This document shows positions 389-59,290 of a stretch of DNA of 64,000 bases, in pieces (position 1 is the stretch's first letter; each line of letters starts with the position of its first letter). Below the pieces are notes generated by a model. That model searched no databases. It was not told the origin of the DNA and worked only from the letters and a program-made list of their open reading frames with translations. Origin of the DNA: Mobula hypostoma. Lineage: Eukaryota. Position numbers and translations under genes: made by a program. The stretch lies in contig NC_086097.1 in the NCBI RefSeq assembly GCF_963921235.1, positions 25,298,001-25,362,000 on the forward strand, read 5' to 3'.

Positions 389-2290
389 TGGCAGAGAACA
401 TAAAAACTGACTGTAAAAGCTTTTATAGACATGTGAAAAGAACAAGATTGGTTAAGACAAATGTAGATCCCCTACAGACAGAAACAAGTGAATTGATTAT
501 GGGGAGCAAGGACATGGCAGACCAATTGAATAATTACTTTGGTTCTGTCTTCACTAAGGAGGACATAAATAATCTTCCAGAAATAGTAGGGGACAGAGGG
601 TCCAATGAGATGAAGGAACTGAGCGAAATACATGTTAGTAGGGAAGTGGTGTTAGGTAAATTGAAGGGATTAAAGGCAGATAAATCCCCAGGGCCAGATG
701 GTCTGCATCCCAGAGTGCTTAAGGAAGTAGCCCAAGAAATAGTGGATGCATTAGTGATAATTTTTCAAAACTCTTTAGATTCTGGACTAGTTCCTGAGGA
801 TTGGAGGGTGGCTAATGTAACCCCACTTTTTAAAAAAGGAGGGAGAGAGAAACCGGAGAATTATAGACCGGTTAGCCTAACATCGGTGGTGGGGAAAATG
901 CTAGAGTCAGTTATCAAAGATGCGATAACAGCACATTTGGAAAGCAGTGAAATCATTGGACAAAGTCAGCATGGATTTGTGAAAAGAAAATCATGTCTGA
1001 CGAATCTCATAGAATTTTTTGAGGATGTAACTGGTAGAGTGGATAGGGGAGAACCAGTGGATGTGGTATATTTGGATTTTCAAAAGGCTTTTGACAAGGT
1101 CCCTCACAGGAGATTAGTGTGCAAACTTAAAGCGCATGGTATTGGGGGTAAGGGATTGTTGTGGATAGAGAATTGGTTGGCGGACAGGAAGCAAAGAGTG
1201 GGAATAAACGGGACCTTTACAGAATGGCACGCAGTGACTAGTGGGGTACCGCAAGGCTCAGTGCTGGGACCCCAGTTGTTTACAATATATATTAATGACT
1301 TAGATGAGGGAATTAAATGCAGCATCTCCAAGTTTGCGGATGACACGAAGCTGGGCGGCAGTGTTAGCTGTGAGGAGGATGCTAAGAGGATGCAGGGTGA
1401 CTTGGATAGGTTTGGTGAATGGGCAAGTTCATGGCAGATGCAATGTAATGTGAATAAATGTGAGGTTATCCACTTTGGTGGCAAAAACAGGAAAACAGAT
1501 TATTAACGCAAACAACAGGAATTCTGCAGATGCTGGAAATTCAAAACAGATTATTATCTGAATTGTGGCCGATTAGGAAAAGGGGAGGTGCAACGAGACC
1601 TGGGTGTCATTATACACCAGTCATTGAAAGTGGGCATGCAGGTACAGCAGGCGGTGAAAAAGGCGAATGGTATGCTGGCATTCATAGCAAGAGGATTCCA
1701 GTACAGGAGTAGGGAGGTACTACTGCAGTTGTACAAGGCCTTGGTGAGACCACACCTGGAGTATTGTGTGCAGTTTTGGTCCCCTAATCTGAGGAAAGAC
1801 ATTCTTGCCATAGAGGGAGTACAAAGAAGATTCACCAGATTGATTCCTGGGATGGCAGGACTTTCATATGATGAAACACTGGATCAACTAGGCTTATACT
1901 CGTTGGAATTTAGAAGACTGAGGGGGGGATCTTATTGAAACGTATAAAATCCTAAGGGAATTGGACAGGCTAGATGCAGGAAGATTGTTCCCGATGTTGG
2001 AGAAGTCCAGAACGAGGAGTCCTTTGAGGACCGAGATTAGGAAAAACTCCTTCACACAGAGAGTGGTGAATCTGTGGAATTCTCTGCCAAAGAAAACAGT
2101 TGAGGCAAGATCATTGGCTATATTTAAGAGGGAGTTAGATATGGCCCTTGTTGCTAAAGGGATCAGGGGGTATGGAGGAAACGCTGGTACAGGGTTCTGA
2201 GTTGGATGATCAGCCATGATCATACTGAATGGCGGTGCAGGCTCGAAAGGCCGAATGGCCTACTCCTGCACCTATTTTCTATGTTTCTAT
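389..2290 (+). mobile_element. CR1 LINE, 5'-truncated ORF2 (RT) plus 3' UTR
   Basis: [37 protein letters not shown] and KFADDTK motifs; 3' (TTTCTATG)n tail at ~2275-2295; stop created by the 1506-1542 insertion and a frameshift in the G-run at ~1922. Confidence 0.95.
1506..1542 (-). mobile_element. 37-bp Penelope-type terminal fragment with 14-bp TSD
   Basis: AAAACAGATTATTA at 1492-1505 and 1543-1556; the insert matches the PLE terminus (CTGCAGATGCTGGAAAT) seen at 37581 and, inverted, at 49030-49060. Confidence 0.85.
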
Positions 2291-3086
2291 GTTTCCTCAA
2301 CACTACCTGGCCATCCACTAATCTTTGTATCATCTGCAAACTTGGCAACAATTTCATCTATTCCATCATCTAAATCATTTATATACAGCTTAAAAAGAAG
2401 TGGTCCCAACACAGACCCCTGCAGAACACCACTAGTCACTGGCAGCCAACCAGAAAAGGATCCATTTGTTCCCACTCGCTGCCTCCTACTAATCAGCCAA
2501 TGCTCTAATTATGTTAGTAACTTTCCTGTAATTCTATGAACTCTTAACTTGGTAAGCAGCCTCATGTGTGGCACCTTGTCAAAGGCCTTCTGAAAGTCCA
2601 AATATACAACATCCACTACATCCTCTTTATCTATCCTACTTGTAATCTCAAAGTATTCCAGCAAGTTCGTCAGAGAGGATTTTCCCTGAAGGAAACCATG
2701 CTGACTTTGTATTATCTTGTCCTGTGTCACCAAGTACTCCATCACCTCATCCTTAACAATTGACTTTAACATCTTCCCAACCACTGAGGTCAAACTAACT
2801 GGTCCATAATTTCTTTTCTGCTGCCTTCTTCGTTACTTAAAGAGTGGAGCAGCATTTGCAATTTTCCAGTCCTCTGGTACCATGCCAGAGTCCAATGATT
2901 TCTGAAAGATCATTTCTAATACCACAGCAATCTCTAGTGCTACCTCTTTCAGAATCCTAGGATGCAGTTCATCTGGTCCGGGTGACATATGTATTGTACT
3001 TTCAGGTTTCTCCGCTTTTTGAGCACCTTTTCTCTCGCACACACTTCTCTTTCTTCACACACTACACCATAAGGCATATTGCTAGT
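2291..3086 (-). mobile_element. Old CR1 LINE RT fragment
   Basis: [38 protein letters not shown] and KFADDTK in broken frames. Confidence 0.9.
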
Positions 3087-3307
3087 GTTCTATAACCATA
3101 TAACAATTACAGCACGGAAACAGGCCATCTCGGCCCTTCTAGTCCGTGCCGAACTCTTACTCTCACCTAGTCCCACCGACCTGCACTCAGCCCATAACCC
3201 TCCATTCCTTTCCTGTCTGTATAGCTGTCCAATTTAACTTTAAACGACAACATCGAACCTGCCTCAACCACTTCTGCTGGAAGCTCTTTCCACACAGCTA
3301 CCACTCT

Positions 3308-5955
3308 CTAAGTAAAGAAGTTCCCCCTCTTGTTACCCCTAAACTTTTGCCCTTTAACTCTCAACTCATGTCCTCTTGTTTGAATCTCCCCCACTCTCAA
3401 TGGAAAACGCCTATCCACGTCAACTCTATCTATCCCCCTCATAATTTTAAATAACTCTATCAAGTCCCCCTTCATCCTTCTACGTTCCAAAGAATAAAGA
3501 CCCAACTTGTTCAACCTTTCTCTGTAACTTAGTGATGAAACCCAGGTAACATTCTAGTAAATCTTCTCTGTACTCTCTCTATTTTGTTGGCATCTTTCCT
3601 ATAATTCGGTGACCAAAACTGTACACAATACTCCGAATTTGGCCTCACCAATGCCTTGTACAATTTCAACATTACCTCCCAACTCCTATACTCAGTGCTC
3701 TGATTTATAAAGGCCAGCATACCAAAAGCTTTCTTCATCACCCTATCCACATGAGATTCCACCTTCAGGGAACTATGCACCATTATCTCTGGATCCCTCT
3801 GTTCTACTGCATCCTTCAATGCCCTAACATTTACCATGTATGTCCTATTTTGATTAGTCCTACCAAAATGTAGCACCTCACATTTATCAGCATTAAACTC
3901 CACCTGCCGTCTTTCAGCCCACTCTTCTAACTGGCCTAAATCTCTCTGCAAGCTTTGAAAACCTACTTCATTATCCACAACTCCACCTATCTTAGTATCA
4001 TCTGCATACTTACTCATCCAATTTACCACTCCATCATCCAAATCATTAATGTATATGACAAACAACATTGGACCCAGTACAGATCCCTGAGGCACACCAC
4101 TAGTCACTGGCCTCCAATCTGAGAAACAGTTATCCACCACCACTCTCTGGCATCTCCCATCCGGCCACTGCTGAATCCATTTTACTACTTCAATATTAAT
4201 ACCTAATGATTGAAGCTTCCTAACTAACCTTCCGTGTGGAACCTTGTCAAAGGCCTTACTGAAGTCCATATAGACAACATCCACTACTTTACCCTCGTCA
4301 ACTTTCCTAGTAACCTCTTCAAAAAATTCAATAAGATTTGTCAAACATGACCTTCCACGCACAAATCCATGTTGACTGTTCCTAATCAGACTCTGTCTAT
4401 CCAGATAATTATATATACCATCTCTAAGAATACTTTCCATCAATTTACCCACCAATGACGTCAAACTCACAGGCCGATAATTGCTAGGTTTACTCTTAGA
4501 ACACTTTTTAAACAATGGAAAAACATCAGCAATACGCCAATCCTCCGGCACCATCCCCATTTCTAATGACATTTGAAATGTTTCTGTCAGAGCCCCTGCT
4601 ACTTCCACACTAACTTCCCTCAAGGTCCTAGGAAATATCCTGTCAGGACCCGGAGACTTATCCACCTTTATATTCCTTAAAAGCTCCAGTACTTCCTCTT
4701 TAATCATCATAGTTTCCATAACTTCCCTACCCATTTCCCTTAACTTACACAATTCAATATCCTTCTCCTTAGTGAATACCGAAGAAAAGAAATTGTTCAG
4801 AATCTCCCCCATCTCTTTTGGCTCCACACATAGCTGTCCACTCTGATTCTCTAAGGGATCAGATTTTATCCCTCACTATCTTTTTGCTATTAATATAACT
4901 GCGGAAACCCTTTGGATTTATTTTCACCTTACTTGCCAAAGCAACCTCATATCTTCTTTTAGTTTTTCTAATTTCTTTCTTAAGATTCTTTTTACATTCC
5001 GTATATTCCTCGAGCACCTCATTTACTCCATGCTGCCTATATTTATTGTAGTTATCTCTCTTTTTCCAAACCAAGTTTCCAATATAGCTCGAAAACCATG
5101 GCTCTCTCAAACCTTTAACCTTTCCTTTCAACCTAACAGGAACATAAAGATTCTGTACTCTCAAAATTTCACCTTTAAATTACCTCCATTTCTCTATTAC
5201 ATTCTTCCCATAAAACAAATGTCCCAATCCACTCCTAAATCCTTTCGCATCTCCTCAAAGTTAGCCTTTCTTCAATCAAAAATCTCAACCCTGGGTCCAG
5301 ACCTATTCTTCTCCATAATTATATTGAAACTAATAGCATTGTGATCACTGGACCCAAAGTGCTCCCCAACACAAACCTCCGTCACCTGACCTATCTCATT
5401 CCCTAACAGGAGATCCAACACTACCCCTTCTCTGGTTGGTACCTCTATGTATTGCTGCAAAAAATTATCCTGCACAAATTTTACAAACTCCAAACCATCC
5501 AGCCCTTTTACAGTTTGGGCTTCCCAGTCTATGTGTGGAAAATTAAAATCTCCCACAATCACAACCTTGTGCTTACTACAAACATCTGCTATCTCCTTAC
5601 ATATTTGCTCCTCCAATTCTCGCTCCCCATTTGGTGGTCTACAAACACCCCTATAAGTATTACTACACCTTTCCCATTCCTCAATTCCATCCAAATAGCC
5701 TCCCTAGACGAGCCCTCTAATCTATCCTGCCAGAGTACCGCTGTAATATTTTCTCTGACAAGCAATGCAACACCTCCCCCTCTTGTCCCTCCGATTCTAT
5801 CACACCTGAAGCAACGAAATCCAGGAATATTTAGTTGCCAATCGCACCCCTCCTGTAACCATGTTTCACTAATAGCTACCACATCATACTTCCAGGTATT
5901 AATCCATGCTTTAAGCTCATCCACCTTTCTTATAATGCTCCTAGCATTAAAATAA
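3308..5955 (-). pseudogene. CR1 ORF2p (APE endonuclease + reverse transcriptase), disrupted
   Basis: 432-aa RT ORF with [19 protein letters not shown] and YADD; upstream endonuclease split across frames. Confidence 0.9.
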
Positions 5956-7390: not shown

Positions 7391-7396
7391 GGGCAA

Positions 7397-8965: not shown

Positions 8966-9195
8966 ACAGGCAAACTCAAGAGACTGTTGATTTTGGAAGC
9001 AGGAGCAACAAACCATCCGCTGGAGGAACTCAATGAGTTGGAGAATGTTTTGGGCTGAAAGTCTACATCAGAATAAGCATCAACAGGGGAAATGGCCAGT
9101 AGAGAGAAAGGGGATGGGTAGGGAAGAGGTGAGGAAAGCTGTTGAAGTTGATTAGTGGACTGACAGGGAGTGAGGAATGATGAGTAGATGAATAA

Positions 9196-9373
9196 ACACA
9201 AGAGGTTCTGGAGATGCTGGAAATCCAGAGTAACATATACAAAATGCTGGAGGAAATCAGCGGTTCAGACAGCATCTATGGAGATAGAGGGTCTCGTCCA
9301 AATCACTGAACATTTATTCCTCTCTATAGGTTCTGCCTGACCTGCTGAGTTCCTTCAGCATTTTGTGTGTGTT
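9196..9373. mobile_element. Penelope-derived fold-back element (degenerate)
   Basis: AAATGCTGGAGGAA.TCAGC...GCTGAGTTCC.TCAGCATTTT inverted arms. Confidence 0.7.
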
Positions 9374-9822
9374 GGGCAAATGAAGTCAAGTGAAGGAGGA
9401 ACTGGGATCGACTTGTGACTCAAGCAAACAAAATCGCAAATCATAAAATGGTGCCATTTAGGGGCGACTCATTGCGAGCAGCTCCGAAGGGAAACATCAA
9501 ATATTCCCGTTCAAGACCACTATAGCTGAAATCCACATCACGGCTATGGGTAAGCAACATCATTTTAAGACATTTAAAAAATCTACCATGCCTATAAAAA
9601 AAGCATTCACCCCCTTGTAATTTTTCATGTTTTATTGCTTTACAACATTGAATCACAATGGATATAATTTGGCTTTTTTTGGACACTGATTAACAGAAAA
9701 AGACTCTTTTGTGTCAAAGTGAAAACCAATCTCTACAGAATGATCTAAATTAATTATAAATATAAAACACAAAAAAATTGATTGCATAATTACTCACCCC
9801 TTCAAGTCAGGATTTAGTAGAT

Positions 9823-9908
9823 GCAACACACAAAAATGCTGGAGGAACTCAGCTGGCCAGGCAGCATCTGGGGAAAAGAGTACAGTCAACGTTTCAGGCC
9901 GAAACCTT
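9823..9908 (-). mobile_element. Penelope pLTR fragment inserted in Tc1
   Basis: Minus strand reads GGCCTGAAACGTTGACTG...GATGCTGCCTGGCC. Confidence 0.75.
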
Positions 9909-10801
9909 CCTTTGGCAGCAGTTACAGCCTTGAGTCTATGTGGATAGGTCTCTATCAGCCTTACACATCTGGACACTGCAATGTTTCTCCATTCTTCTTA
10001 CAAAACTGCTGAAACTCTGCCAGATTGCATGGGGATCGTGAGTGAACAGCCCTTTTCAAGTCCAGCCACAAATTTTCAATTGGATTGAGGTCTGGACTCT
10101 GACTTGGCTACTCCAGGACATTAACTTTGTTGTTTTTAAGCCATTCCTGTGTAGCTTTGGCTTTATGCTTAGGGTCATTGGCTTGCTGGAAAGCAAATTT
10201 TCTCCAAGTTGTAGTTCTCTTGCAGTCTGCATCAAGTTTTCCTCCAGGATTTCCCTGCATAATTTTACCCTCTACCTTCACAAGCCTTCCAGGGCCTGCT
10301 GCAGTGAAGCATCCCCACAGCGTGATACAGCCAACACCATGCTTCACGGTACAGATGATGTATTTTTGATGATATGCGGTGTTTGGCTTACACCAAACAA
10401 AGGGTTTACTCTGATGGCTAAAAAGCTAAATTTTTGTTTCATCAGACCATGGAACGTTCTTCCAGCTGACCTCAGTCGCCCACATGCCTTCTTTCAAACT
10501 CTAGCCAAGATTTCATGCGAGTTTTTTTCAACAGCAGCTTTCTCTTTGCCACCCCCCCATAAAGCTGTGACTGGTGAAGCACGCGGGGAATATGCACAGT
10601 CTCTCCCATCTCAGTCACTGAAGCTTGTAACTCCTCCAGAGTTGTCATAGGTCCCTTGGTGGTCTCCCTCAATAGTCCCCTTCTTGCACGGTCACTCAGT
10701 TTTTGAGGACAGCCTTTTCTAGGCAGATTTACAGCTGTGTCATATAATTTCCATTTCTTGATGATTGACTTAACTGTACTCCAAGGGATATTCAGTGACT
10801 T

Positions 10802-11630
10802 AAGGGTCGGGGCAAAGTGATGACGGTGCGAAACGGCGAGTCCTTTGCTTGCATTTTCGGAAACAGCTCTATTTCTATCTTTGATATCTTTTTTTTAATT
10901 CTTTTCAACGTTTTTTTGAAGACCCTGACCTGGAGTTACACTCTGACTTCGGTTTTTTGCAGGAATGGGAGCCACTCTCAGGGCCTCACGGCCTCACCAG
11001 CTGCCATTTGATATCCCAAGGATGTGGGCTGGAAGACTAGCATGCATTCAGGTTGCCAGAATTTTGTGGCTCTGGAAACAGGCGATTCGAGGCTGGTGCC
11101 CCTGACTGAGGTGTCGAAGGAGAACACGGAACATTGGGAGCAGCCGTTAGCTGCCATGGGCTGTGTGTCCAGAGACCTGAGCTTTATGGGCGCAGAGCTC
11201 AGAAAATGTGACACAACAGACTTTAAACATCATAAATCAGCGAGTTGTTTGTTATATCTCTTCCCTCGCTGTGAAATGGGGACACTTCTTTTTCTCCTAG
11301 GGAGAGAGAGAGCCTGTGGTATGTCGAACTACCAAATGAATGAGTAGTCTTTGGGACACTGCAAGTCTGTGTTTTTATTGATGCTTTGCTGCGCGCTTGA
11401 GTGCTCAGTGGGGGCACCGATGCTTTTTTGCTGGTGGGGAGGGGGGAGGTGTCATTACCTTGCTGCTGCTTGTGCATGGGAGGGGGTAGCTCGGGGGGGG
11501 TGGCTTTGGGGTTCTAATATTTAACTGTCATTCATTCTTTGGGGCACCTCTCTGTTTTTGTGGATGTTTGCGAAGAAAAGGAATTTCAGGATGTATATTG
11601 TATACATTTTTCTGACATAAGATAAACCTG
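10802..11630 (+). mobile_element. Unclassified non-autonomous retroposon inserted in the Tc1 transposase
   Basis: Tc1 coding sequence is split at GTGACT|TGGAAAT; the insert is relatively CpG-rich, non-coding, with a LINE-like 3' tail (CATTTTTCTGACATAAGATAAAC). Confidence 0.65.
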
Positions 11631-12967: not shown

Positions 12968-13432
12968 GACTACAGAGAGCATTCTAATTGGCCCCATCAC
13001 CATCTGGTATAGAGACTCCAATGCACAGGATCGGAAAAAGTTGCAAAGGATTGTAAGCTCAGCCAACTCAATCACAAGCACTTGCCTTCCCAACATTGAG
13101 GACATCTTCAAAAGCCAGACCTTGAGAATGCGGGATCCATCTTTGAAGGACATGCCTTCTTCTCATTACTCCCATCAGAGGGGAGATACAGGAGTCTTAA
13201 GATGCACATTCAGTGCTTTAGGAACAGCTTCTTTCCTCTGCTGTCCTAATTCTGAATGACCAATGAACCCATGAACGCTACCTTGTTATTTTAATATTTT
13301 GCTCACTTTTTACACTATTTAATTTTAAAATATTTATTATTGTATAATAATTTTTATGTATTGAATTGTACTGCTGCCACAAAACAAATTTAACAGCTTA
13401 TGTCAATGATAATAAAACCTAATTCTGATTCA
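12968..13432 (+). mobile_element. Rex1/Babar LINE 3' end
   Basis: QDRKKLQRIVSSANSIT..LPNIEDIF and LPSEGRYRSL; (ATTCTG)n tail. Confidence 0.8.
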
Positions 13433-13960
13433 GAGATGAAACCAGATGGGTGGGGAGGGGTTTGAGGGGAAAAGCCAGTGGATGAAGTTTATGGATGGAC
13501 CAGGAGGGGGAGGGGACAAAAATGGGTGATGCGGTGGTTGGAGAGCAGGAATGGGAAAGGGAAAAAATTGGGGAACCAGGGGATGCTCAGAAGGTAAAAA
13601 AAAAACAGGACAGGGGAGGGCTGGAGGGGAACGTCCTGAAGATGAGAGCTATCTGAAATTGGAAAACTCAGTGTTCAAACCATAAGGATGTACACTACCC
13701 AGGTGGAATATGAAGAATTTTTTTTCTAGTTTATGCTGCATTTCACACCAATGGTACAGTAGGTTGAGGATGGATAAGCTCGTGAAGAATTGAAATGCAT
13801 ACAGCTGGGAGAGCTCAGAATGGCTGTTACATACTGAGCACAAGTGCTCTGAAAATCAGTTGCCAAGTCTGCACTAAGTATCACTGATGTAGATGAGGCC
13901 GTATTGTGGGTAGTGGAGGAAATGCATATGAAGCTTTATCTCACTTGGAGAGCTTCCATC
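13433..13960 (-). mobile_element. Penelope-like element fragment (GIY-YIG C-terminus + pyrimidine-rich 3' region)
   Basis: FHLGSVHPYGLNTEFSNFR matches the PLE C-terminus at 37960. Confidence 0.7.
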
Positions 13961-18950: not shown

Positions 18951-19605
18951 GACACAAGAGATCCAGAGAAACACACAGAAAATGACGGAGCAGCTCAGCA
19001 GGTCAGGCAGCATCTATGGAGAGGAATAAACAGGCAACATTTCAGGCCAAGACCCTTCATCAGGACTGGAAAGGAAGGGGGAAGATATCAGAATAACAAG
19101 ATGGGGGGACAAGAAGGAGTACAAGCTGGAAGATGATAGATGAAACCAGTTAGAGGGAAGGTGGGTGGATGGGAGAGGGGGGGAATGAAGAAAGAAGCTA
19201 GGAGGTTGTAGGTGAAAAAGGAAAAGGGCTGAAGAAGAATGAATCTGATAGGAGTGGAGAGTGGACCATGGGAGAAAGGGAAGAAGGAGGGGCACCAGAG
19301 GGAGGTGATAAGTCGGTGAGGAGAACAGAATAGGTAAGAGGGGAGCCAGTACAGGGAATGGAAAAAGAGAGATGGGGTAGAGGGGGAGATATTACCAGAA
19401 GTCACAGAAATCGATGTTCACACTGTAAGGTTGGAGAATACTCTGGCGGAAAAAGAGGTATTGCCCCTCCAACCTGAGAGTGTCTACATCGTGACGGTAA
19501 AGGCAGCCATGGAGCAACGTGTCAGAAAGAGAAAGGGAAGTGGAATTAAAATGGGTGGCCACTGTGAGATCCTGGCTTTTGGGGCAGAGTAAAAGTGCTC
19601 CACAT
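18951..19605 (-). mobile_element. Penelope-like element 3' fragment with hammerhead motif
   Basis: VATHFNS...LRLEGQYLFFRQSILQPYSVNIDF (GIY-YIG C-terminus), followed by pLTR with CTGATGA...GAAA. Confidence 0.85.
19031..19068 (-). ncRNA. Minimal hammerhead ribozyme (mutated stem III)
   Basis: CAGTC-CTGATGA-AGG-GTCTTGG-CCT-GAAA-TGTT-GCCTG. Confidence 0.6.
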
Positions 19606-19902: not shown

Positions 19903-20011
19903 CCCCTCAAAATGATAGAGGAACTCAATAGGCCAGGCAGCATCTGTGGAAAAGAGTACAGTTGACTGTGTGTTGCTTGGGTTTCCAGCATCTGCAGATT
20001 TTCTTTTGTTT
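19903..20011. mobile_element. Penelope-derived mini element with 14-bp TSD
   Basis: ATTATTGCAGCTAA at 19889-19902 and 20012-20025; contains two pLTR pieces in opposite orientation. Confidence 0.85.
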
Positions 20012-20304
20012 ATTATTGCAGCTAAACCACTTTTCCTGTCACAACTGTCTTTTTTTTTTAAATATACACACACCAATTTCAAACAAATATAAACACCCAT
20101 ACAAAGCAGTAATTTTGGATCCTCAGTTGATTCAGTTTGCAGTATAGTCTTCTAGTTATCCTTTTCAGCCATCTCGACAATCTACTAAATTTACAAATGG
20201 ATAGATTGACCTTAGAGTTGATTAACAGGTCGGCACAACATCATTGGTCCAATGTCCGGTATTATGCTGTGCTGTTCCATGTTCTAAATGTTTTAAAAGT
20301 GTAT

Positions 20305-26153: not shown

Positions 26154-26170
26154 AAAGTGCAGTGCAGGTG

Positions 26171-28525: not shown

Positions 28526-28620
28526 TCCTGATGAAGGGTCTTGGTCTGAAGTGGTGACACTTTATTACTTTCTGTTGATGCTGCCTATCTGCTGAGTTCC
28601 TCCAGCATTTTATGTGTGTT
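28526..28620 (+). mobile_element. Penelope pLTR fragment, degenerate hammerhead
   Basis: CCTGATGAAGGGTCTTGGTCTGAAG...GCTGAGTTCCTCCAGCATTTT. Confidence 0.7.
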
Positions 28621-28774
28621 ACTCTTCCCCAGGATGGACTTTCCCATGGACTTGAAATTAAATAGCTGGTTTTGATAAACACTTTCTTTTGCAGGCACAC
28701 TGATGGATTTGTGGTGACTCCCTCGACCTCTGTTTTGCCATATCTCTTTGGCACTTCAATCATTCAAATCTTAC

Positions 28775-32360: not shown

Positions 32361-32510
32361 TCCTTTATAAAGCTAATCTTTCCATTGGGTAGTGGAAACA
32401 AATTTAGGTTTCACAAGCTGTATGATGTGCCCCTTAATTTAAAAAAACATATTAAATGTTGGAATTCTGCGAGGTAAATGTTGAAATCTAAACACACAAC
32501 ATGTATCAGT

Positions 32511-32544
32511 GTCCTGACGAAGGGTCTCGGCCTGAAACGTCGAC
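32511..32544 (+). ncRNA. Minimal type I hammerhead ribozyme, intact core
   Basis: GTC-CTGACGA-AGG-GTCTCGG-CCT-GAAA-CGTC^GAC; stem I GUC/GAC, stem II AGG/CCU, palindromic ACGU stem III; predicted cleavage after C32541. Confidence 0.8.
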
Positions 32545-32606
32545 TGCGCCTCTTCCTATAGATGCTGCCTGGCCTGCTGCGTTCGCCAGCAACTTTGATG
32601 TATGTT
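32511..32606 (+). mobile_element. 96-bp Penelope-derived insertion with 12-bp TSD
   Basis: ACATGTATCAGT at 32499-32510 and 32607-32618. Confidence 0.9.
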
Positions 32607-33444
32607 ACATGTATCAGTTGATGCGCTGAATTTGTGAGATGACCAAAGGTGGAAAACTGAGATGGTTGAGTACACGGGGAAATGGGGAAAGGGTGGGTTC
32701 GGAATTGAAGAGAGGCAGAGCCATAGGCAGGGTGGGCATATAACAAGTAGGTTGGGCAGATATGGGAAGGATAGAGCAATTGAGACAAAGAGCTATCCAA
32801 CTGAGACCTCAGTGGTGGAGCTGGTGGAAGACGATGACACAGCACAGCAGCAGTAAAACCGGAGGAAGGCTGCAGCAGTAGCAGGTCCCCAGTCATCTTG
32901 CATTCTATGCCACTGGACCCTGACCCCAATCTGTCAAGGTCCATGTGGTGGCTGCCCGTGCATCATTCTCCTCACATTAAACAAAGAAATGTTCCATTAA
33001 GGAACTCGACCCTAACATCCCAAACTCCTTAGGAGAACATTCTACTCGGCTTAAGTGATCACACTACTAATCACTTGTATAATAGCTAAACTTTGTCTTA
33101 GAAAATAGATGATCCCACTTGCCAACAAAAAATGATTCGATGGCCAGAATGACGGCATCCAAATAAGATAAATAAAAGCAAATAAAGCTAACGCAGCAAC
33201 TTTCGCGTCCCAAATCAATTCATATTACCATTCACTTTCCAAACACAGCCATCCAATTTTTTTCCACTTCTCAGTTCTACAAATGGCAACAAGATAATTA
33301 TGCAGCTAATGAGCTCCGGTCATGTCAGTTGAGGGATAAATCTTGGTTAAACTGCAACAGTCAGTACATTTTCAAAATGATTCATCAGCATCAAAACACT
33401 TTGGGATGCCTGGAGTTGAGTAATATGCTAACCAAGTAGATGCT

Positions 33445-37580: not shown

Positions 37581-38600
37581 CGCAAACACAAAATACTCTG
37601 CAGATGCTGGGGTCAACGATGGAGGGACTCAGCAGGTCGGGCAGCATCAGTGGAAAAGATCGGTCGACGTTTCAGACCAGATCCCTTCGTCAGGACTGCA
37701 GAGGGAAGGGGCAGAGGCCCTATAAAGAAGGTCGGGGGAAGGTGGGAAGGAGAAGGCTGGTAGGTGCCAGGTAAAAAACCAGTAAGGGGAGAGATAAAGA
37801 AGTGGGGAAGGGGAAGCAGGGAGGTGATAGGCAGGAAAGGTAAAGAAGGAATAGGGGAAAACACAATGGGTAGTAGAAGGAGGCAGAAGCATGAGGGAGG
37901 TGATAGGCTAGGGGAGGGGGCAGAGTGACATAGGGATAGAGGAAGGGAGGGGGAGGGAATTACCAGAAGTTGGAGAATTCTATGTTCATACCAAGGGGCT
38001 GGAAACTACCTGGACGGTATATGAGGTGTTGCTCCTCCAACCTGAGTTTAGCCTCATCATGGCAGTAAAGGAGGCCATGTATGGGCATATCTGAATGGAA
38101 GTGGGAAGCAGAGTTGAAGTAGGTGGCTACTGGGAGATCCTGCCTGTTGTGGCGGACGGAGCGGAGGTGCTCAACGAAGCTGTCCCCCAATCTGCGTCGG
38201 GTTTCACCGATGTAGAGGAGGCTGCACCTGGAGCACCAGATGCAATAGATGACCCCAACAGACTCACAAGTGAAGTGCTGTTTGGGGCCCTGAATGGTGG
38301 CAAGAGAGGAAGTGTAGGGACAGGTGTAGCACTTGCGCTTACAGGGTTAAGTGCTGGGTGGGAGATCAGTGGGGAGGGACCGATCCCTGCGGAAAGCAGA
38401 GAGGGCTAGAGAGGGAAAGATGTGCTGTTGAAGGTGGCAGAAGTTGCAGAGGATAATGTGCTGGATCCGGAGGCTGGTGGGTTGGTAGGTGAGGACAAGG
38501 GGAACTCGGTCCCTGTTGGCAGGGCTCCCGAAACGTCGACCGATCTTTTCAATGGATGCTGCCTGACCTGCTGAGTTCCTCCAGCGTGTTGTGAGTGTTG
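37581..38600 (-). mobile_element. Penelope-like element (Neptune-like), 5'-truncated, with inverted partial pLTR
   Basis: HFTCESVGVIYCIWCSRCSLLYIGETRRRLGDSFVEH...LQPLGMNIEF-like GIY-YIG; pLTR at 37581-37700 and an inverted copy at 38527-38600; diverged TSD CTTGGA(G/C)T(A/G)GACTA. Confidence 0.92.
37661..37698 (-). ncRNA. Minimal hammerhead ribozyme, intact core
   Basis: CAGTC-CTGACGA-AGGGATCTGGTCT-GAAA-CGTC^GACCG. Confidence 0.75.
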
Positions 38601-38647
38601 CTTGGACTGGACTACAATGGGCCTGTACTATTCTATTGTATGTTCAT

Positions 38648-38783
38648 AAACACAGGAGAGTTTGCACATGCTAGAAATCTAAAGTAACACACACAAAATC
38701 TGGAGGAACTCAGCAGGTCAGGAAGCATCTATGGAGAGGAATAAACAGTCAATGTTTCAGGGCCGAGACCCTTCGCAGGACTG
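38648..38783 (-). mobile_element. Penelope pLTR fragment, degenerate hammerhead
   Basis: Minus strand reads CAGTCCTGCGAAGGGTCTCGGCCCTGAAACATTGACTG. Confidence 0.75.
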
Positions 38784-38974
38784 TTAAAATATTGGGAAGA
38801 AGCCAGAATGTGTCCAATGTTCTATGTCCTGGACACCAAGTGTGTAGTAACATTCATGTCACATGATAAATACATCCAACATAATGTTTAACTACCACCC
38901 TATCATAAAATATCCACTCCATCCATCACCAGTGTGTTATGTCTGAAATGCACGTCAATTAAATTATACCCTGT

Positions 38975-39630
38975 TCACAAGAACGCAAGAAAATAGGAAG
39001 AGGCCACCAAGCCCTTCAAACCTGTCCCATCATTCACTATGATCATGGCTGATCAATGTTGGTCTCAATTCCTCTGTCAGTTCCCCATTACCCTCAATTC
39101 ACCACTCTTTCAAATATTTATCCATCTACCCTTAAATATAGCTAATGAACTGGCCTCCATCACCCCCGGAACAAAGAATTCCAGAGATTGACCACCCTTT
39201 GTGAGAAGAAATTTCAACACACCTCAGTTTTAAATGAACAACCATTCAGGCTATGTTCCCCTGTTTATAACTCTCCAACTGGTAAAAATGTTCTAACATC
39301 TACCTTCAGTACCTGATGAAGGATCTTGGCCGGAAACATCGACTGTTTATTCCCATCCATAGATACTGCCTGACCCGCTGAGTTCCTCCAGCATTTTGTG
39401 GGTTGCTCTTTTACAGTATGCCTGAATAAGGTTACCCCTCATTAGTCTAAACTCCACTGAATACATATCCAAACTGTCTAGCCTCTCTTAGTAGGACAAA
39501 CTTCTCATCACAGGAGTTAGCCTGGTGAATCTACTTTGGACTGCCTCTAATGCCACTATATTTTTTCAAGTAAGGGAACCTAGACTGTACACAGTAGTCC
39601 AACACACTAACACACTGTACAACTGTAACA
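38975..39630 (-). mobile_element. CR1 3' fragment interrupted by a pLTR piece (39307-39410)
   Basis: CR1 3' UTR and QRRFTRL-like coding remnant. Confidence 0.75.
39307..39345 (+). ncRNA. Minimal hammerhead ribozyme variant
   Basis: CAGTAC-CTGATGA-AGGATCTTGGCCG-GAAA-CATC^GACTG. Confidence 0.6.
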
Positions 39631-40280: not shown

Positions 40281-40282
40281 CA

Positions 40283-41622: not shown

Positions 41623-41860
41623 ACCTACATTTCTATAGAAGTTTCCACAGTTCCAGAATATTCAAACATTTTATAGCTAATTATTTTGAACTGTTACAAT
41701 GCAGCCAAGATTTGGAGAGCGAGTTTCCCCAGAAGTGTGTATTGACCATAGAAGTCACAGAGTCATGCTGCTGGGAAATACTTCAAAGTTCAAAGTAAAT
41801 TTACTGTCAATGTAGATATATGTCACTGTATACAACCTTAAGATTCATTGTCATGCAGGC

Positions 41861-44985: not shown

Positions 44986-45485
44986 GGGTTGAGTGAAGAA
45001 CCAATGAAATGGCATCTGCAGTTGACCTATTACCTAGTAGGCAAATTGGAGTGGATCCAAGTCACTTCTCAGGCAGGAGTTGACACGTTTCATCAACTAG
45101 CTCTCAAAACACTTCATCACTGTGATGTAAGTGCTACTGGATGATAGTTATTGAGGCAAGTTACCATGTTCTTCTTAGGTACTGGTATAATTGAAACCTG
45201 CTTGAAACAGGTGAGTACCTCAGAGTGTCGATGCGGGAGGTTAAAGGTAACAGTGAACACTCCAGCCAGATGATCAGCACAGGTCTTTAGTCCTCAGCCA
45301 TCTACACTATCTGAGCTAGATGCTTTCTGTAGGTTCACCCTCCTGAGGGATGCTTTCACATCAGCCCCAGAAACTGAAATCACAGGGTCATGAGGAGTTC
45401 TGGACGCCTCCATGTTTTGACAGTCAAAGCGATCATAAAATAGTTTAAGTTCACCTGGTAGCAAAGTCTTGTTGTCACCTATGTT

Positions 45486-45648
45486 CAAGCAACACACATA
45501 AAAGTTGCTGGCGAATGCAGCAGGCCAGGCAGCATCTCTAGGAAGAGGTACAGTCGATGTTTCGGGCCGAGACCCTTTGTCAGGACTAACTGAAAGAAGA
45601 GCTAGTAAGAGATTATCGCAAGATCTTCCATCTGCAGATTTGTCAAGC
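45486..45648 (-). mobile_element. Penelope-derived insertion with 12-bp TSD and mutated hammerhead
   Basis: GTCACCT(A/G)TGTT at 45474-85 and 45649-60; AGTC-CTGACAA-AGGG-TCTCGG-CCC-GAAACATC-GACTG. Confidence 0.85.
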
Positions 45649-48478: not shown

Positions 48479-48857
48479 CCAGAAGTTTCATATCCCTGTG
48501 TTTTATTCTGGCTTGAAGTCCTCCCCTCCGCTCTCTCTTCCGGCTGTGGTGATGTGCCTTCACCTGCTTCAGGGTGCCGTACCTGTATTCCTGAGAATCA
48601 AGTCTACTGAGTCCTTCAGAAGACTGTGAAACTGTTAGTTTGTTAAGCCGGTTTAAAAGTACATTACTTAGAGGGAAAATACAGGCCGCAGATTGCAGCA
48701 ATAGTAGTTTAGAAGTATAATTAAAAGTTTTGTGTGCAGCCTGCAAAACATTTGTCACCAGCGCCATCTTGCTCCACCAAACAGCCATATACACCCGGAG
48801 CTGTTTTTGATTTTCCCCAATTGATATCTCGGTGCCATCAAATGTGGTAGGAATATT

Positions 48858-49060
48858 AAAGTTGCTGGTGAACGCAGCAGGCCAGGCAGCATCTCTAGGA
48901 AGAGGTACAGTCAATGTTTCGGGCCAAGACCCTTCGTCAGGACCTGACCCGAAACATCTACTGTACCGCTTCCTAGAGATGCTGCCTGGCCTGCTGCGTT
49001 CACCAGCAACTTTTATGTGTGTTGCTTGAAATTCCAGCATCTGCAGATTTCCTCGTGTTT
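48858..49060. mobile_element. Penelope-derived fold-back element with central hammerhead
   Basis: ~66-bp arms at 48858-48923 and 48948-49013; minus strand reads GTC-CTGACGA-AGGG-TCTTGG-CCC-GAAACATT-GACTG. Confidence 0.9.
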
Positions 49061-49079
49061 GATAGATATATTGGTCAGT

Positions 49080-49670
49080 TTCTGTAGATCCTGGAAATAC
49101 TGAACAACAGATGCAAAATACTGGAGGAATTCAGTAAGTCAGGTAGCATTTATGGAAATGAGTAAACAGTCAATGTTTTAGGGACCCTTCATCAGGACTG
49201 GAAAGGGAAAGGGAGAAGGCAGTGGGGCTGCAGGGAGTAGAAAGAGGGATAGATGGCAGAAGATAGCTAAGACTGGTTGAAGGGGGAAGGTGCATGGGTG
49301 GGGGAAAGGGGGGTGAAGTGAGAAGCTAGACGGTGATAAGTGGAAGAGGTAGAGAGCTGAACAAGAAAGAATATGATAGGAGAGGATAGTGGACCATGGG
49401 AGAAATAGAAAATGGAGAGGAATCAGAGGAAGCTGATGGACAGGTGAGGAGAAGAGAAGGGATGAGAAGGTGGGGAATGGAAAAAGTAGGGGATAAGACA
49501 AGAGAAATTACCTGAAGTTAGAGAAATTAATGTTCATGCCACCAGGTTGGAGGCTACCCAGATAGAATATGCAGTTTTGGTCCTTCAATCTGAGTAATGC
49601 CTGACCATGGTAAAGTTGAACTGAAATGGGGCGGACCAAGCAAAAGGATACTTGATGAAGCAGTCCCCCC
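49080..49670 (-). mobile_element. Penelope-like 3' fragment
   Basis: LGSLQPGGMNINFSNFR C-terminus at ~49510-49565; pLTR with truncated hammerhead at 49170-49200. Confidence 0.8.
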
Positions 49671-51420: not shown

Positions 51421-51954
51421 GATAAATGTGAGGTACATTCGATCTGCTCATCAAAATTGACAATGACCTATGCCAACACACACAAAATGCTCAAGGAACA
51501 CAGCAGGTCAGTCAGAATTTATTGGGAGGAATAAAAAGCCAAAGTTTTGGACTAACGTAGACCTGTAGTATTTTTTTAAATTGGCAATATATTTGGGTAG
51601 GCTTCTCTTTGGGTGAATTGGTGCTGGGACAAATGGAACAATCTCAATGTCAATTACCTGACGCATCAGTCCATTGCAATATTGCTCATTCATACATGCC
51701 ATTAAGGGCTGTGTTCCACACTGGGTATAATCTGCCTGCATATATACCATATCTACACAACTGTACACTTAGCTTCTCAGCACTTTCAGAACCAATGGCT
51801 GGTTGTTAACTTTCTTCCCATATCTGCCTTTACTTTTAAACAATTAGCCCTGCTGTGACCATATAGTACGGAAAAAAAACTAAGAGAAGCACTGATACAA
51901 ACTTTGAGAGATTCTGCATCATAAAGAGAAAAATTCTGTGCATTAAAAAGAATA

Positions 51955-58199: not shown

Positions 58200-58555
58200 A
58201 TGTAAGAAAGTAATCAGGACTCTTAAGAATATTGATGCACCCACCAGTGAATCTTGGGGTGCAAGTCCACCACTCCCTGTAAGTGGCAACATATCAACAT
58301 AAGATGGCGAAGAATGCGTACAGCATTTTTGCCTTCCATCAGTCAGAATTCAGTTTAACTGTCAGAAGTCATGTTGCAGCTATATAAAGCTTTGGTTAGT
58401 TTCTGAATACTGTGTGCCGTTCTGGTATCTGCACTTCAGGAAGGATGTAGAGGCTTTGGAAGGGGTACAGAAGAGATTCATCAGGATGTTGCCTGGATTT
58501 GAGATTATTAGCAATAAGAAGAGGCTGGACAAACTTGGATTGCTTTCTTTGGAGG
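58200..58555 (+). mobile_element. CR1 RT C-terminal fragment
   Basis: QLYKALV and RKDVEALEGVQKRFIRMLPG. Confidence 0.8.
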
Positions 58556-58825
58556 AAGCCGTAGCACCCAGAGGAAACCCATGAGGTCACAGGGAGAGTG
58601 TACAAACTTGGGAATTGAACTCTGATCAGTGGTTGCTGGTGGTGTAAAGTATTGTGTTAACCACTACACTACCATGGTGCCAAGTAGCTAGAATTGAAAA
58701 GAATGACATCAGTTGGCAAACACAGCTGCACTTCACTTCTTTGTCTTCAGAACTGTGTGTGTGACTTCCACAACTCTACTTCTCACAGTCCAGTCTCTCA
58801 TAATCATTTACACACTTTAACAAAG

Positions 58826-59290
58826 GAACAACACACAAAATGCTGTAGGAACTCAGCAGGTCAGGCGGCATCAATGGAGGGAAAGAGCAGTCAATGTTTC
58901 AGGCTGAGAACCTTCATCAGGACTAGAAGGGAATGGGGCAGAAGCCAGGATAAGAAGGCTGGGGGGAGGGGAGGAACGACAAGCTGGCAGGGTCTTTGAT
59001 GAAGGGTATCAGCCTGAAACAATGACTTTTTAATCCTCTCCATAGATGTTGCCTGACCTGCTGAGCTCCTCTAGCATTTTGTGTGTTACAGGTGATAGGT
59101 GAAGCCAGGTGAGTGGGATAGGGGTGGGGGATGAAATGAGAAGCTGGGTGGTAAAGGGCTGAAGAAGTGAAATCTTACAGGAGAGGAGAGTGGACCATGG
59201 GAGAAAGGGAGTGACACCAAAAGGAGGTGTCAGGCAGGTGAGCAGAAGAGAAGGGGTAAGAAAGGAGCTAGAATGGGGAATTCAAAAAGG
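58826..59290 (-). mobile_element. Penelope pLTR fragment containing a second, oppositely oriented pLTR piece (~58991-59088)
   Basis: Minus-strand hammerhead at 58888-58925 (AGTC-CTGATGA-AGG-TTCTCAG-CCT-GAAACATT-GACT); degenerate plus-strand copy at 58992-59027. Confidence 0.8.

What the first reader, a model, noticed from the sequence alone, without database searches (positions are those of the whole stretch)
1492..59290. Dispersed hammerhead-ribozyme-bearing Penelope family with non-autonomous mini-elements (retrozyme-like system)
Seen: about 15 related inserts share one pLTR sequence. At least ten show a recognisable (CA)GTC-CTGAYGA-AGG(G)-loop-CCY-GAAACGTC-GAC(TG) motif (19031, 28526, 32511, 37661, 38750, 39307, 45551, 48908, 58888, 58992). 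Four are attached to GIY-YIG coding remnants (13650, 19392, 37960, 49510); the rest are 37-200 bp non-coding inserts with 12-15 bp TSDs. Established: CUGANGA...GAAA...UH is the hammerhead catalytic core, and Penelope-like elements carry minimal type I hammerheads whose palindromic stem III forms in dimers. Inference: an autonomous PLE has spread short self-cleaving RNA units at roughly one per 4-5 kb, which would place potential cleavage sites on both strands of any transcript crossing this region.
Basis: partly seen in the sequence, partly recalled or inferred. Interest (0 to 1): 0.8.

Follow-up and report, generated by a model that had tools for sequence, protein, structure and literature searches.

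The report
Truncated Penelope retroelement copies with hammerheads
The scattered repeats are mostly broken-off tail ends of one hugely abundant Penelope-like jumping gene that carries a small hammerhead ribozyme motif just behind its protein-coding part, which is an arrangement already described in fishes and other animals.

Summary
The repeat family is real. I map 16 inserts plus one decayed coding remnant, about one per 4 kb. All ten listed motif sites belong to the family.

It is a canonical endonuclease-bearing Penelope-like element (PLE): RT, a CX4CX2C linker, then GIY-YIG. The minimal type I hammerhead lies 192-304 nt after the stop codon, on the sense strand.

Genome-wide, the strict hammerhead pattern occurs 98,619 times and the segment after it 171,977 times. 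Reversed-pattern controls gave 0.

The short inserts are 5'-truncated or inverted-arm PLE ends, not a separate retrozyme-like lineage:
- Protein candidates fall from 180,436 (C-terminus) to 14,319 to 438 (N-terminus).
- The window has no tandem arrays.
- Full-length copies show the published partial-tandem pLTR layout.

Only 6 of 12 window hammerheads keep an intact core, and 2 keep the ACGU palindrome, so host-transcript cleavage is unlikely.

Results against the ribozyme reading: no Rfam hammerhead match, no covariation (0 of 11 pairs), and folding energies no better than shuffles. The assignment rests on the published min-HHR descriptor.

Two extras: a 5'-end hot spot at the first bases of helix I, and rare 41-122 nt head-to-tail hammerhead arrays elsewhere in the genome.

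Verdict: a known kind, at unusually large scale.

The parts
1506..1542 (-). 37-bp insert made only of the distal post-hammerhead segment (about +100 to +135). It is flanked by a 14-bp target-site duplication at 1492-1505 and 1543-1556, inside a LINE copy.
   Evidence: The uninterrupted LINE paralogue at about 47266-47421 lacks the insert.
9186..9374 (.). Inverted pair of post-hammerhead fragments with no complete hammerhead: minus arm 9186-9288, plus arm 9333-9374.
9820..9918 (-). 5'-truncated copy that starts inside the hammerhead (about 0 to +9) and runs to +95. Core changed at U4 and G5.
13430..13900 (-). Decayed GIY-YIG coding remnant with stop codons, plus pyrimidine-rich 3'UTR. No recognisable hammerhead.
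18964..19588 (-). 5'-truncated element: coding remnant 19364-19588, 3'UTR, hammerhead about 19030-19071 (core intact, AUGU instead of ACGU), then the post-hammerhead segment.
19907..20016 (.). Pair of post-hammerhead fragments: minus 19907-19966, plus 19962-20016. Target-site duplication at 19889-19905 / 20012-20028 (17 bp, 1 mismatch).
28526..28635 (+). Short copy that starts at about -2. Hammerhead core is broken (A15.1 to G, U16.1 to G).
32506..32614 (+). Short copy that starts at -3. Hammerhead core and ACGU palindrome are intact. 12-bp target-site duplication at 32499-32510 / 32607-32618.
37581..38518 (-). Largest copy in the window, 5'-truncated. ORF remnant with an open 128-aa GIY-YIG part (37963-38346), 3'UTR 37699-37962, hammerhead 37661-37698 (intact core and ACGU), post-hammerhead segment 37581-37660.
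38527..38607 (+). Inverted arm (+17 to +97) joined head to head to the 5' end of the 37581-38518 copy. Imperfect 15-bp duplication at 37567-37581 / 38601-38615.
38633..38784 (-). Short copy (-6 to +139). Hammerhead has lost A6.
39299..39408 (+). Short copy (-13 to +93). Core intact, palindrome lost (ACAU).
45484..45614 (-). Short copy (-31 to +99). Core change G8 to A.
48855..49060 (.). Head-to-head pair: minus arm 48855-48943 (-3 to +85, core intact, ACAU) and plus arm 48945-49060 (+14/+17 to +129).
49075..49610 (-). 5'-truncated element: coding remnant 49506-49610, 3'UTR, degenerate hammerhead about 49170-49213 (G12 to A), post-hammerhead segment to about 49075.
51474..51518 (-). 45-bp fragment of the post-hammerhead segment (+46 to +90).
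58821..59087 (.). Head-to-head pair: minus arm 58821-58994 (-74 to +96, core intact, ACAU) and plus arm 58997-59087 (+1 to +89, C3 to U and U16.1 to A).

Best explanation
The inserts are old copies of one very abundant, canonical endonuclease-bearing Penelope-like element (PLE) of this 3.48-Gb animal genome. Most are 5'-truncated or inverted-arm copies.

Unit layout. Coordinates count from C3 of CUGAYGA as 0.
- An ORF of roughly 1,070 aa, estimated from two copies: N-terminal domain, RT, a CX4CX2C linker, then GIY-YIG.
- The stop codon, followed by a pyrimidine-rich 3'UTR of about 190-300 nt.
- A minimal type I hammerhead. Helix I is CAGUC/GACUG. After CUGAYGA comes one extra A, then helix II (GGGU/GCCC) with a tetraloop. 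It ends GAAA-ACGU-C, with the predicted cut after +27.
- A post-hammerhead segment of about 60-105 nt, at which genomic copies end (+85 to +139).
- In full-length copies this segment runs straight on to the ORF start codon at about +162. The 3'UTR, hammerhead and post-hammerhead segment therefore form the pseudo-LTR of a partial tandem.

Shown here: the anatomy, the link between motif and ORF, the copy numbers, the 5'-truncation gradient, the inverted arms, and the target-site duplications where they are still readable.

Inferred from published PLE work:
- Copies arise by target-primed reverse transcription that starts inside the post-hammerhead segment and usually stops early.
- cDNA extended from the second DNA end gives the inverted arm.
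- The hammerhead acts, if at all, as a dimer through the ACGU palindrome to process longer-than-unit PLE RNA.

The window copies are dead relics. They are not a functioning cleavage system for host transcripts.
For: PLE identity:
- A 634-aa frame from copy L019 gives RVT_1 (E 6.9e-6) followed by C-terminal GIY-YIG (E 0.0035).
- Copy L029 gives GIY-YIG at E 4.6e-4.
- The GIY-x10-YIG spacing and the CX4CX2C linker can be read directly from the translation.
- ESM Atlas neighbours score 0.98 and are animal clusters carrying HTH_animal, DUF8422, RVT_1 and GIY-YIG.

Link of motif and ORF:
- In 12 of 16 distinct protein-ascertained elements the hammerhead lies 192-304 nt after the ORF end, on the sense strand.

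pLTR and partial tandem:
- L073 reads ORF end, 3'UTR, hammerhead, post-hammerhead segment, ATG and ORF without a break. L072 starts at about -209.

Inverted arm plus sense copy within one target-site duplication:
- L022 has a 13-bp duplication.
- The same layout appears in L026 and L031, in the window at 37581-38607, and at junctions.

5' truncation:
- First-look protein candidates number 180,436 for the C-terminal 128 aa, 14,319 for a segment near the 5' end of the 707-aa L022 frame (just upstream of the RT), and 438 for the N-most 100 aa. These are lower bounds, not copy numbers.
- Of 30 copies found by the post-hammerhead motif, 11 reach beyond -200 and 19 are shorter.

Abundance:
- 98,619 strict hammerhead patterns and 171,977 post-hammerhead motifs, with reversed controls at 0.
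- PLE sequence covers 4,890 of 50,000 bp in five arbitrarily chosen regions.

Hammerhead features match the published min-HHR description (Cervera and De la Pena 2014, whole text read):
- All core bases are present.
- 10.1-11.1 is a G-C pair.
- Positions 15.1-16.1 are palindromic.
- Helix I has 4-5 bp.
- Single scattered motifs and opposite-strand pairs both occur.
- In 41 copies, 90% of cells pair in the proposed structure, against 13-41% when the partner is slid.
Against: - No Rfam hammerhead family matches: not at gathering score, not at E up to 10 on the window, and not on a 181-nt stretch around a young copy.
- No compensatory change in 0 of 11 pairs. Shuffles reach the observed measures in 495-500 of 500 trials. 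Structure is therefore not supported by covariation within this genome.
- MFE folding of monomer or dimer is no more stable than shuffles: -11.4 against -12.6 +/- 2.8, and -11.8 against -10.2 +/- 2.5. The canonical hammerhead fold is not the MFE.
- Both Pfam hits fall below their gathering scores.
- The isolated window ORFs gave no Pfam hit.
- phmmer against PDB found nothing.
- Self-cleavage and expression were not tested here.
Confidence: 0.88

Rival explanations
1. The modules of about 100-140 bp (hammerhead plus post-hammerhead segment) are a self-propagating, non-autonomous lineage. They would be SINE-like or retrozyme-like, transcribed on their own and mobilised in trans by the PLE protein.
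For: - 5' ends pile up at the first bases of helix I. This holds for 10 of 30 copies found by the post-hammerhead motif (-8 to +7).
- It holds for 12-13 of the first 100 copies found by the hammerhead 5' part (-6 to -3, classified by hand).
- It holds for 7 of 19 arms in the window.
- Rare head-to-tail arrays of 41-122 nt hammerhead units exist elsewhere in the genome.
- A 2026 preprint argues that animal retrozymes derive from PLE pLTRs (abstract and Results read).
Against: - The window has no tandem arrays.
- Genome-wide there are only 101 head-to-tail pairs with a 50-110 nt gap, against 98,619 strict hammerhead motifs.
- Short copies match the same subfamily references as long ORF-bearing copies, for example L029 at 87-97%.
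- Their 3' ends vary from +85 to +139, as in long copies.
- They lack the A/T-rich patch about 25-30 nt upstream that could serve as a promoter.
- 80 of 100 hammerhead-bearing copies continue upstream into the 3'UTR.
Confidence: 0.1
2. The conserved block is kept mainly for a reason other than self-cleavage. Candidates are a core promoter or transcription start, an RT recognition or initiation signal, or a splice acceptor that abuts helix I. Under this view its hammerhead-like core is a passenger or a relic.
For: - A pyrimidine tract plus CAG directly precedes helix I in all subfamilies.
- In D. virilis Penelope an intron ends at the 5' end of helix I (Cervera 2014), and the promoter is internal (Schostak 2008, passages read).
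- Hammerhead mutants did not affect insertion in vitro for an Anolis PLE, and no RNA-seq reads ended at the cut site (Frangieh 2024, passages read).
- Naiad PLEs thrive without hammerheads (Craig 2021).
- There is no covariation here.
Against: - All invariant core bases, the extra base after A9 and the ACGU palindrome are kept together across subfamilies, while the sequence on either side differs. This is hard to explain by a promoter or splice site alone.
- Related PLE hammerheads cleave as dimers or with the protein present.
Confidence: 0.2
3. The motif matches are chance resemblances within an ordinary repeat.
For: Rfam finds no hammerhead. Folding energies are unremarkable.
Against: - There are 98,619 strict matches against 0 for the reversed pattern.
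- Every core position is correct and the features of the published PLE min-HHR are present.
- The position behind a PLE ORF is constant.
Confidence: 0.01

Closest known systems
Minimal hammerheads (min-HHR) in pLTRs of metazoan PLEs, including the fish Neptune, Poseidon and Xena elements (Cervera and De la Pena 2014, PMC4209133; whole text read)
   Same: - Open helix I of 4-5 bp.
- CUGANGA followed by one extra nucleotide before helix II.
- A G10.1-C11.1 pair.
- GAAA followed by a palindromic 15.1-16.1 stretch in place of a real helix III.
- Location in the repeat that flanks an RT/GIY-YIG ORF.
- Thousands of scattered single motifs read as truncated PLEs, and pairs on opposite strands 100-700 bp apart.
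   Different: - Scale. There are about 98,600 strict motifs here, against about 4,000 (coelacanth) and 9,000 (Xenopus) reported there by a different descriptor.
- The family here is very uniform and shows no compensatory changes, whereas the paper reports families rich in covariation.
- Cleavage of this family is untested.
Poseidon PLE of Anolis carolinensis, PAc (Frangieh et al. 2024, PMC11167929; passages read)
   Same: - pLTR-ORF-pLTR layout with a hammerhead motif in the pLTR.
- Copies end in a 'tail' that belongs to the start of the next unit, which fits reverse transcription that starts inside the RNA.
- Both DNA strands are extended, which would explain the inverted arms.
- AT-rich targets. 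The TSDs read here are AT-rich.
   Different: - In PAc the ORF starts inside the hammerhead, at stem II. Here the ATG lies about 162 nt after C3 and copies end before it.
- The clade is probably different. The CX2-5CxxC linker is described for Neptune and Nematis (Craig 2021).
Non-LTR retrozymes of animals (Cervera and De la Pena 2020, PMC7229834, passages read; Li, Clavereau and Pollet 2026 preprint 10.64898/2026.07.22.740005, abstract and Results read)
   Same: - Non-coding hammerhead-bearing units, related to PLE pLTRs and presumably dependent on PLE enzymes.
- This genome does hold a few head-to-tail hammerhead arrays.
   Different: - Retrozymes are tandem repeats of about 150-450 bp with canonical type I hammerheads (loop-loop contacts), expressed as circular RNAs.
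- The window's inserts are single or inverted and carry the minimal PLE-type motif.
- They grade continuously into ORF-bearing copies.
Penelope of Drosophila virilis (Schostak et al. 2008, PMC2377424, passages read; Cervera 2014)
   Same: - The hammerhead lies in the pLTR downstream of the promoter region.
- A splice-acceptor-like sequence abuts the 5' end of helix I.
- Propagation needs a more-than-unit copy.
   Different: - In Penelope the transcription start lies about 120 nt upstream of the hammerhead, with a 75-nt intron between them.
- Here neither an intron nor a start site has been shown.

Membership tests
Canonical EN+ Penelope-like element | Reverse transcriptase domain in a single long ORF | tested here: met
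   RVT_1 at E 6.9e-6 (26.4 bits, below the 29.6 cutoff) in L019 and 7.9e-6 in L030. Atlas neighbours at 0.98 carry RVT_1 and HTH_animal/DUF8422. No phylogeny against telomerase-like RTs was made.
Canonical EN+ Penelope-like element | C-terminal GIY-YIG endonuclease | tested here: met
   Pfam GIY-YIG at E 4.6e-4 to 3.5e-3 (18-21 bits, below the 22.6 cutoff), at the C-terminus. The GIY-x10-YIG spacing is read from the translation. The window ORF 37963-38346 alone gave no Pfam hit.
Canonical EN+ Penelope-like element | Partial tandem that forms pseudo-LTRs | tested here: met
   L073 reads upstream ORF end, 3'UTR, hammerhead, post-hammerhead segment, ATG and ORF. L072 has an upstream pLTR from about -209.
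Canonical EN+ Penelope-like element | Heavy 5' truncation and an adjacent inverted 5'-truncated copy | tested here: met
   Candidate counts of 180,436, 14,319 and 438 from the 3' to the 5' end of the ORF. Inverted arms in L022, L026, L031 and window 38527-38607.
Canonical EN+ Penelope-like element | Short extension ('tail') at an insertion end | tested here: met
   3' ends fall in two groups, about +85 to +105 and about +122 to +139. The distal motif is found 7 times in the window against 0.31 expected.
Neptune clade of PLEs | CX2-5CxxC zinc-finger-like linker between RT and EN | tested here: met
   C-x4-C-x2-C lies just upstream of the GIY-YIG in L029, and the same block is present in L019. 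The feature definition comes from Craig 2021.
Neptune clade of PLEs | Phylogenetic placement of the RT with Neptune references | not tested
PLE-type minimal hammerhead (min-HHR) | Catalytic core CUGANGA ... GAAA ... UH in type I order | tested here: met
   In the window, 6 of 12 copies keep every core base.
PLE-type minimal hammerhead (min-HHR) | One nucleotide between A9 and 10.1; a G10.1-C11.1 pair; palindromic 15.1-16.1; helix I of 4-5 bp | tested here: met
   Alignment A1 shows the A after CUGAYGA invariant. 10.1-11.1 is G-C in 20 and G-U in 17 of 41 copies. ACGU is kept in 30 of 41. Helix I cells are 86% paired.
PLE-type minimal hammerhead (min-HHR) | Compensatory base changes in helices I and II | tested here: not met
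   0 of 11 pairs have a change on both sides. Shuffles equal or exceed the observed values in 495-500 of 500 trials. The family is too uniform for this to count against the fold.
PLE-type minimal hammerhead (min-HHR) | Self-cleavage at the predicted site, as a dimer | not testable with these tools
   No raw RNA reads were on offer. No bench test was possible.
Rfam hammerhead families (Hammerhead_1 and relatives) | Match to the covariance model | tested here: not met
   No hammerhead hit at gathering score or at E up to 10. This is expected if the models require a helix III hairpin, but that reason is recalled, not tested.
Animal non-LTR retrozymes | Head-to-tail tandem repeats of hammerhead-bearing units | tested here: not met
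   TRF finds no such array in the window. Genome-wide there are only 101 head-to-tail pairs with a 50-110 nt gap.
Animal non-LTR retrozymes | Canonical type I hammerhead with loop 1-loop 2 contacts | tested here: not met
   Helix I is open and short with no loop 1, which is the PLE-type minimal form. Definition from PMC7229834.
Animal non-LTR retrozymes | Expression as linear and circular RNAs of about 170-400 nt | not testable with these tools
   Only assembled contigs of uncertain RNA or DNA nature were available.

The most novel reading that the evidence does not exclude
The PLE RNA of this family may have a discrete 5' end at the first bases of hammerhead helix I (-6 to -3). An A/T-rich, TATA-like patch lies about 25-30 nt upstream, and an initiator-like CAGT sits at that spot. 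The ribozyme would then be the first ~37 nt of the transcript.

Under this reading, reverse transcription that starts in the 5'-proximal post-hammerhead segment and runs off this RNA end would produce the abundant 100-140 bp modules. Jumps from that end onto another template would produce the rare 41-122 nt head-to-tail hammerhead arrays. That would be a direct mechanistic route from an autonomous PLE to minimal retrozyme-like repeats.
Probability: 0.3. Interest if true: 0.5.

Novelty: new member of a known kind. Interest (0 to 1): 0.25.

Why it matters
This is mainly a clean annotation result. A repeat that covers several percent of the sampled sequence of a 3.5-Gb genome is a Penelope-like element, and its short scattered pieces are truncated copies, not a new ribozyme system.

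The scale makes this genome a convenient natural data set for two open questions about PLEs: whether their hammerheads act in vivo, and how pLTRs, inverted arms and tails arise. There are about 10^5 intact-looking minimal hammerheads. That is an order of magnitude above the vertebrate counts given in the 2014 description, although the descriptors differ.

The 5'-end hot spot at helix I and the short head-to-tail arrays give concrete, testable predictions for RNA-end mapping.

Tried and rejected
- **Rfam scans.** The window at gathering score and at E up to 10, and a 181-nt young copy, gave no hammerhead family. They gave only weak chance hits, such as a mir-645-like hairpin at 22669-22707 (E 0.037, below gathering).
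- **Covariation.** 41 copies showed none.
- **ViennaRNA folding.** MFE and cofold of two window copies were no better than shuffles, and the hammerhead fold was not the MFE.
- **Pfam on isolated window ORFs.** No GIY-YIG hit. One search failed on stop codons and was corrected.
- **phmmer of the 707-aa ORF against PDB.** Nothing at E up to 1.
- **RNA evidence.** No RNA holder was listed. All 24 runs are Logan contigs of guessed kind. Laying four of them on L073:300-1800 gave no recurrent GT..AG joint across the 3'UTR and no table of molecule ends. This says nothing for or against expression, splicing or cleavage.
- **Intron hypothesis.** I considered a 5' splice site at the stop codon (GGTAAT). 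That site is present in one subfamily but absent in the commonest one. The 12 non-UTR contexts upstream of -3 share no common 'exon 1'. I left the question open rather than claim an intron.
- **Larger random genome sample.** A 50-kb sample was used instead.
- **Earlier findings of the scan.** Nothing on this genome.

Full report
**Observation**

The window is G000:C1:25298001-25362000 of a 3.48-Gb assembly, with G+C about 0.42.

Self-BLAST from the copy at 32501-32620, and BLAST with natural reference copies fetched from the same genome, map one repeat family at 16 places plus one decayed coding remnant. The places are listed under 'parts'.

The strict pattern CTGAYGA-N3-30-GAAACGTC occurs only twice in the window (32514 plus strand, 37666 minus strand), against 0.02 expected.

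Genome-wide:
- A pattern covering the core and helix II occurs 49,176 + 49,443 times, with 0 for the reversed control.
- A 19-nt motif of the segment after the hammerhead occurs 86,025 + 85,952 times, control 0.

By my hand sum of the intervals, the family covers about 4.2 kb (6.5%) of the window. It covers 4,890 of 50,000 bp in five arbitrarily chosen 10-kb regions.

**What the element is**

The open 128-aa frame at 37963-38346 (minus strand) has 180,436 first-look candidates in the genome. The scored ones are about 90% identical, with open frames up to 707 aa.

Evidence on the longer copies:
- They give RVT_1 followed by a C-terminal GIY-YIG in Pfam. Both hits fall below the gathering scores: E 6.9e-6 and 3.5e-3 in L019, and GIY-YIG at 4.6e-4 in L029.
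- The translation shows the GIY-x10-YIG spacing preceded by C-x4-C-x2-C. That linker is described for Neptune and Nematis PLEs (Craig 2021, passages).
- ESM Atlas neighbours at 0.98 are animal clusters with HTH_animal, DUF8422, RVT_1 and GIY-YIG.
- phmmer against PDB found nothing.
- The isolated window ORFs gave no Pfam hit.

**Anatomy**

I count from C3 of CUGAYGA as 0. In 12 of 16 distinct elements found through their protein, the hammerhead lies 192-304 nt after the ORF end, on the sense strand.

The motif reads as follows:
- CAGUC, the 5' strand of helix I (-5 to -1).
- CUGAYGA.
- One extra A.
- GGGU, a tetraloop, then GCCY (helix II).
- GAAA.
- ACGU.
- C, with the predicted cut after +27.
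- GACUG, the 3' strand of helix I.

Genomic copies end at +85 to +139. A distal motif marks the longer ends. It occurs 7 times in the window against 0.31 expected.

In the two copies that reach furthest 5' (L072, L073), the order is upstream ORF end, 3'UTR, hammerhead, post-hammerhead segment, ATG at about +162, then the ORF. So the 3'UTR, hammerhead and following segment form the pseudo-LTR of a partial tandem, and the 'tail' of short copies is the start of the next unit. This is the published PLE layout (Craig 2021; Frangieh 2024).

**Short inserts: truncation, not a separate system**

- Candidate counts fall from 180,436 for the C-terminal 128 aa, to 14,319 for a segment near the 5' end of the 707-aa L022 frame (just upstream of the RT), to 438 for the N-most 100 aa. 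These are lower bounds, not copy numbers.
- Of 30 copies found through the post-hammerhead motif, 11 reach beyond -200, and 4 of those reach the sampling limit. The other 19 are shorter. Both groups match the same references.
- Many inserts are an inverted 3' arm joined to a sense copy inside one target-site duplication. Examples are L022 with a 13-bp duplication, L026 and L031, window 37581-38607, the window pairs at 48855-49060 and 58821-59087, and further junctions.
- TRF finds no tandem array of these units in the window.
- Target-site duplications above chance could be shown for 4 of 16 inserts. The rest are too old or have imprecise ends.

**Is it a hammerhead?**

For:
- Every core base is present.
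- The features listed by Cervera and De la Pena (2014, whole text) for PLE min-HHRs are all there: an extra base between 9 and 10.1, a G10.1-C11.1 pair, palindromic 15.1-16.1, and a short helix I.
- The block is kept across subfamilies whose flanks differ.
- 90% of cells pair in the proposed structure, against 13-41% when the partner is slid.

Against:
- Rfam finds no hammerhead at any threshold tried.
- There is no compensatory change in 0 of 11 pairs, and shuffles equal the observed scores.
- Folding energies equal those of shuffles.

The one-sided changes (C-G to U-G, G-C to G-U) sit at CpG sites, which I read as decay. That reading is an inference.

So the assignment rests on membership of a published, partly assayed class, not on independent structural evidence from this genome. 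Those assays found:
- Low cleavage as dimers.
- Protein-dependent cleavage in an Anolis PLE.

**Consequence for host transcripts**

In the window, 6 of 12 full-length motifs keep the core (19067-, 32514+, 37693-, 39312+, 48940-, 58920-). Only 2 keep ACGU. Intact copies on the same strand are at least 6.8 kb apart. Monomers of this class showed no detectable cleavage in vitro. The idea of cleavage sites on both strands of any crossing transcript is therefore unlikely, though untested.

**An extra observation: a 5'-end hot spot**

The 5' ends of copies cluster at the first bases of helix I.
- 10 of 30 copies found by the post-hammerhead motif start at -8 to +7. By comparison, 5 start in +8 to +47 and 4 in -9 to -100.
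- I classified by hand the first 100 copies found by the pattern. Of these, 80 continue upstream as 3'UTR, 7 start at -12 to -20, and 12-13 start at -6 to -3. Their upstream sequence is unrelated flank or an inverted arm.
- In the window, 7 of 19 arms start at -13 to +1.

Head-to-tail hammerhead pairs with a 50-110 nt gap are rare: 56 + 45, control 0. They include arrays with units of about 42, 53, 61, 62, 67, 88, 101, 104, 121 and 122 nt. In 16 of 26 loci where the junction is visible, the next unit begins at -2 to -6.

A pyrimidine tract plus CAG precedes helix I in all subfamilies, and an A/T-rich patch lies about 25-30 nt further upstream.

My preferred reading, at about 0.3, is a discrete RNA 5' end there, that is, a transcription start. 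Other readings remain open:
- A splice-acceptor-related end. D. virilis Penelope has an intron that ends at helix I, but its start site is about 120 nt upstream.
- A property of the reverse transcriptase.

No raw RNA reads were available to decide.

**Comparison and verdict**

- PLE pLTRs with minimal hammerheads, scattered single motifs as truncated copies, and opposite-strand pairs (PMC4209133).
- 5' truncation, inverted arms and tails (PMC8557442).
- Internal initiation of reverse transcription (PMC11167929).
- The derivation of animal retrozymes from PLE pLTRs (preprint 10.64898/2026.07.22.740005).

I could not check whether this particular family is already in Repbase or Dfam. I file it as a new member of a known kind. 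It is notable only for its copy number and for the sharp 5'-end hot spot, which I did not find described in the papers I read. Supplements of these papers were not opened and may bear on that point.

Noticed in passing
Genome-wide samples: L037-L066 and the listings. In the window: 28526, 32506, 38784, 39299, 48943, 58997.: The 5' ends of copies, and the junctions of inverted arms, pile up at the first bases of hammerhead helix I (about -8 to +7). The rate per base is about 8 times that of the 18 nt just upstream (-7 to -24). This suggests a discrete RNA 5' end.
   Followed up: partly
G000:C50:67866274-67866697; C5:27282328-27282561; C5:177667691; C22:156787346; C190:365088; C63:13592789-13593144; others: Rare head-to-tail arrays of hammerhead units only about 42-122 nt long. 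In the ~42-nt units the two strands of helix I are joined by a very short loop. These are the closest thing to retrozyme-like repeats in this genome.
   Followed up: partly
window 1492-1556 and L029:2590-5490: Two independent PLE insertions lie at the same AT-rich site of two copies of one LINE family. One is a 37-bp tail piece in the window. The other is a 2.7-kb copy in L029, in the opposite orientation. This hints at a preferred target.
   Followed up: partly
L029:192-5066 (+): A 1,625-aa open frame fuses a LINE (Exo_endo_phos plus RVT_1) in frame with the inserted PLE ORF. It is most likely an accident of insertion. The start of the PLE part carries a short internal duplication.
   Followed up: no
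L-series references, -40 to -1 before the hammerhead: An A/T-rich patch sits about 25-30 nt upstream of the CAGT that precedes helix I, in an otherwise C/T-rich 3'UTR. It reads TTTATAG in one subfamily and TTCAAAT or TTCAAAC in two others. It is a possible core promoter.
   Followed up: no
window 388-1935 (+), 2290-4872 (-), 41842-42767 (+), 46743-48487 (-), 10475-10894 (-): The rest of the window is dense with other mobile elements. There are LINE-type RT fragments (RVT_1 E 1e-13 to 1e-34) and a Tc1/mariner-type transposase HTH. No host exon was looked for.
   Followed up: no
window 48855-49610: Three PLE pieces lie back to back: a head-to-head pair, then a tail-to-tail neighbour at 49075. 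This suggests insertion of PLE copies into or next to older ones.
   Followed up: no
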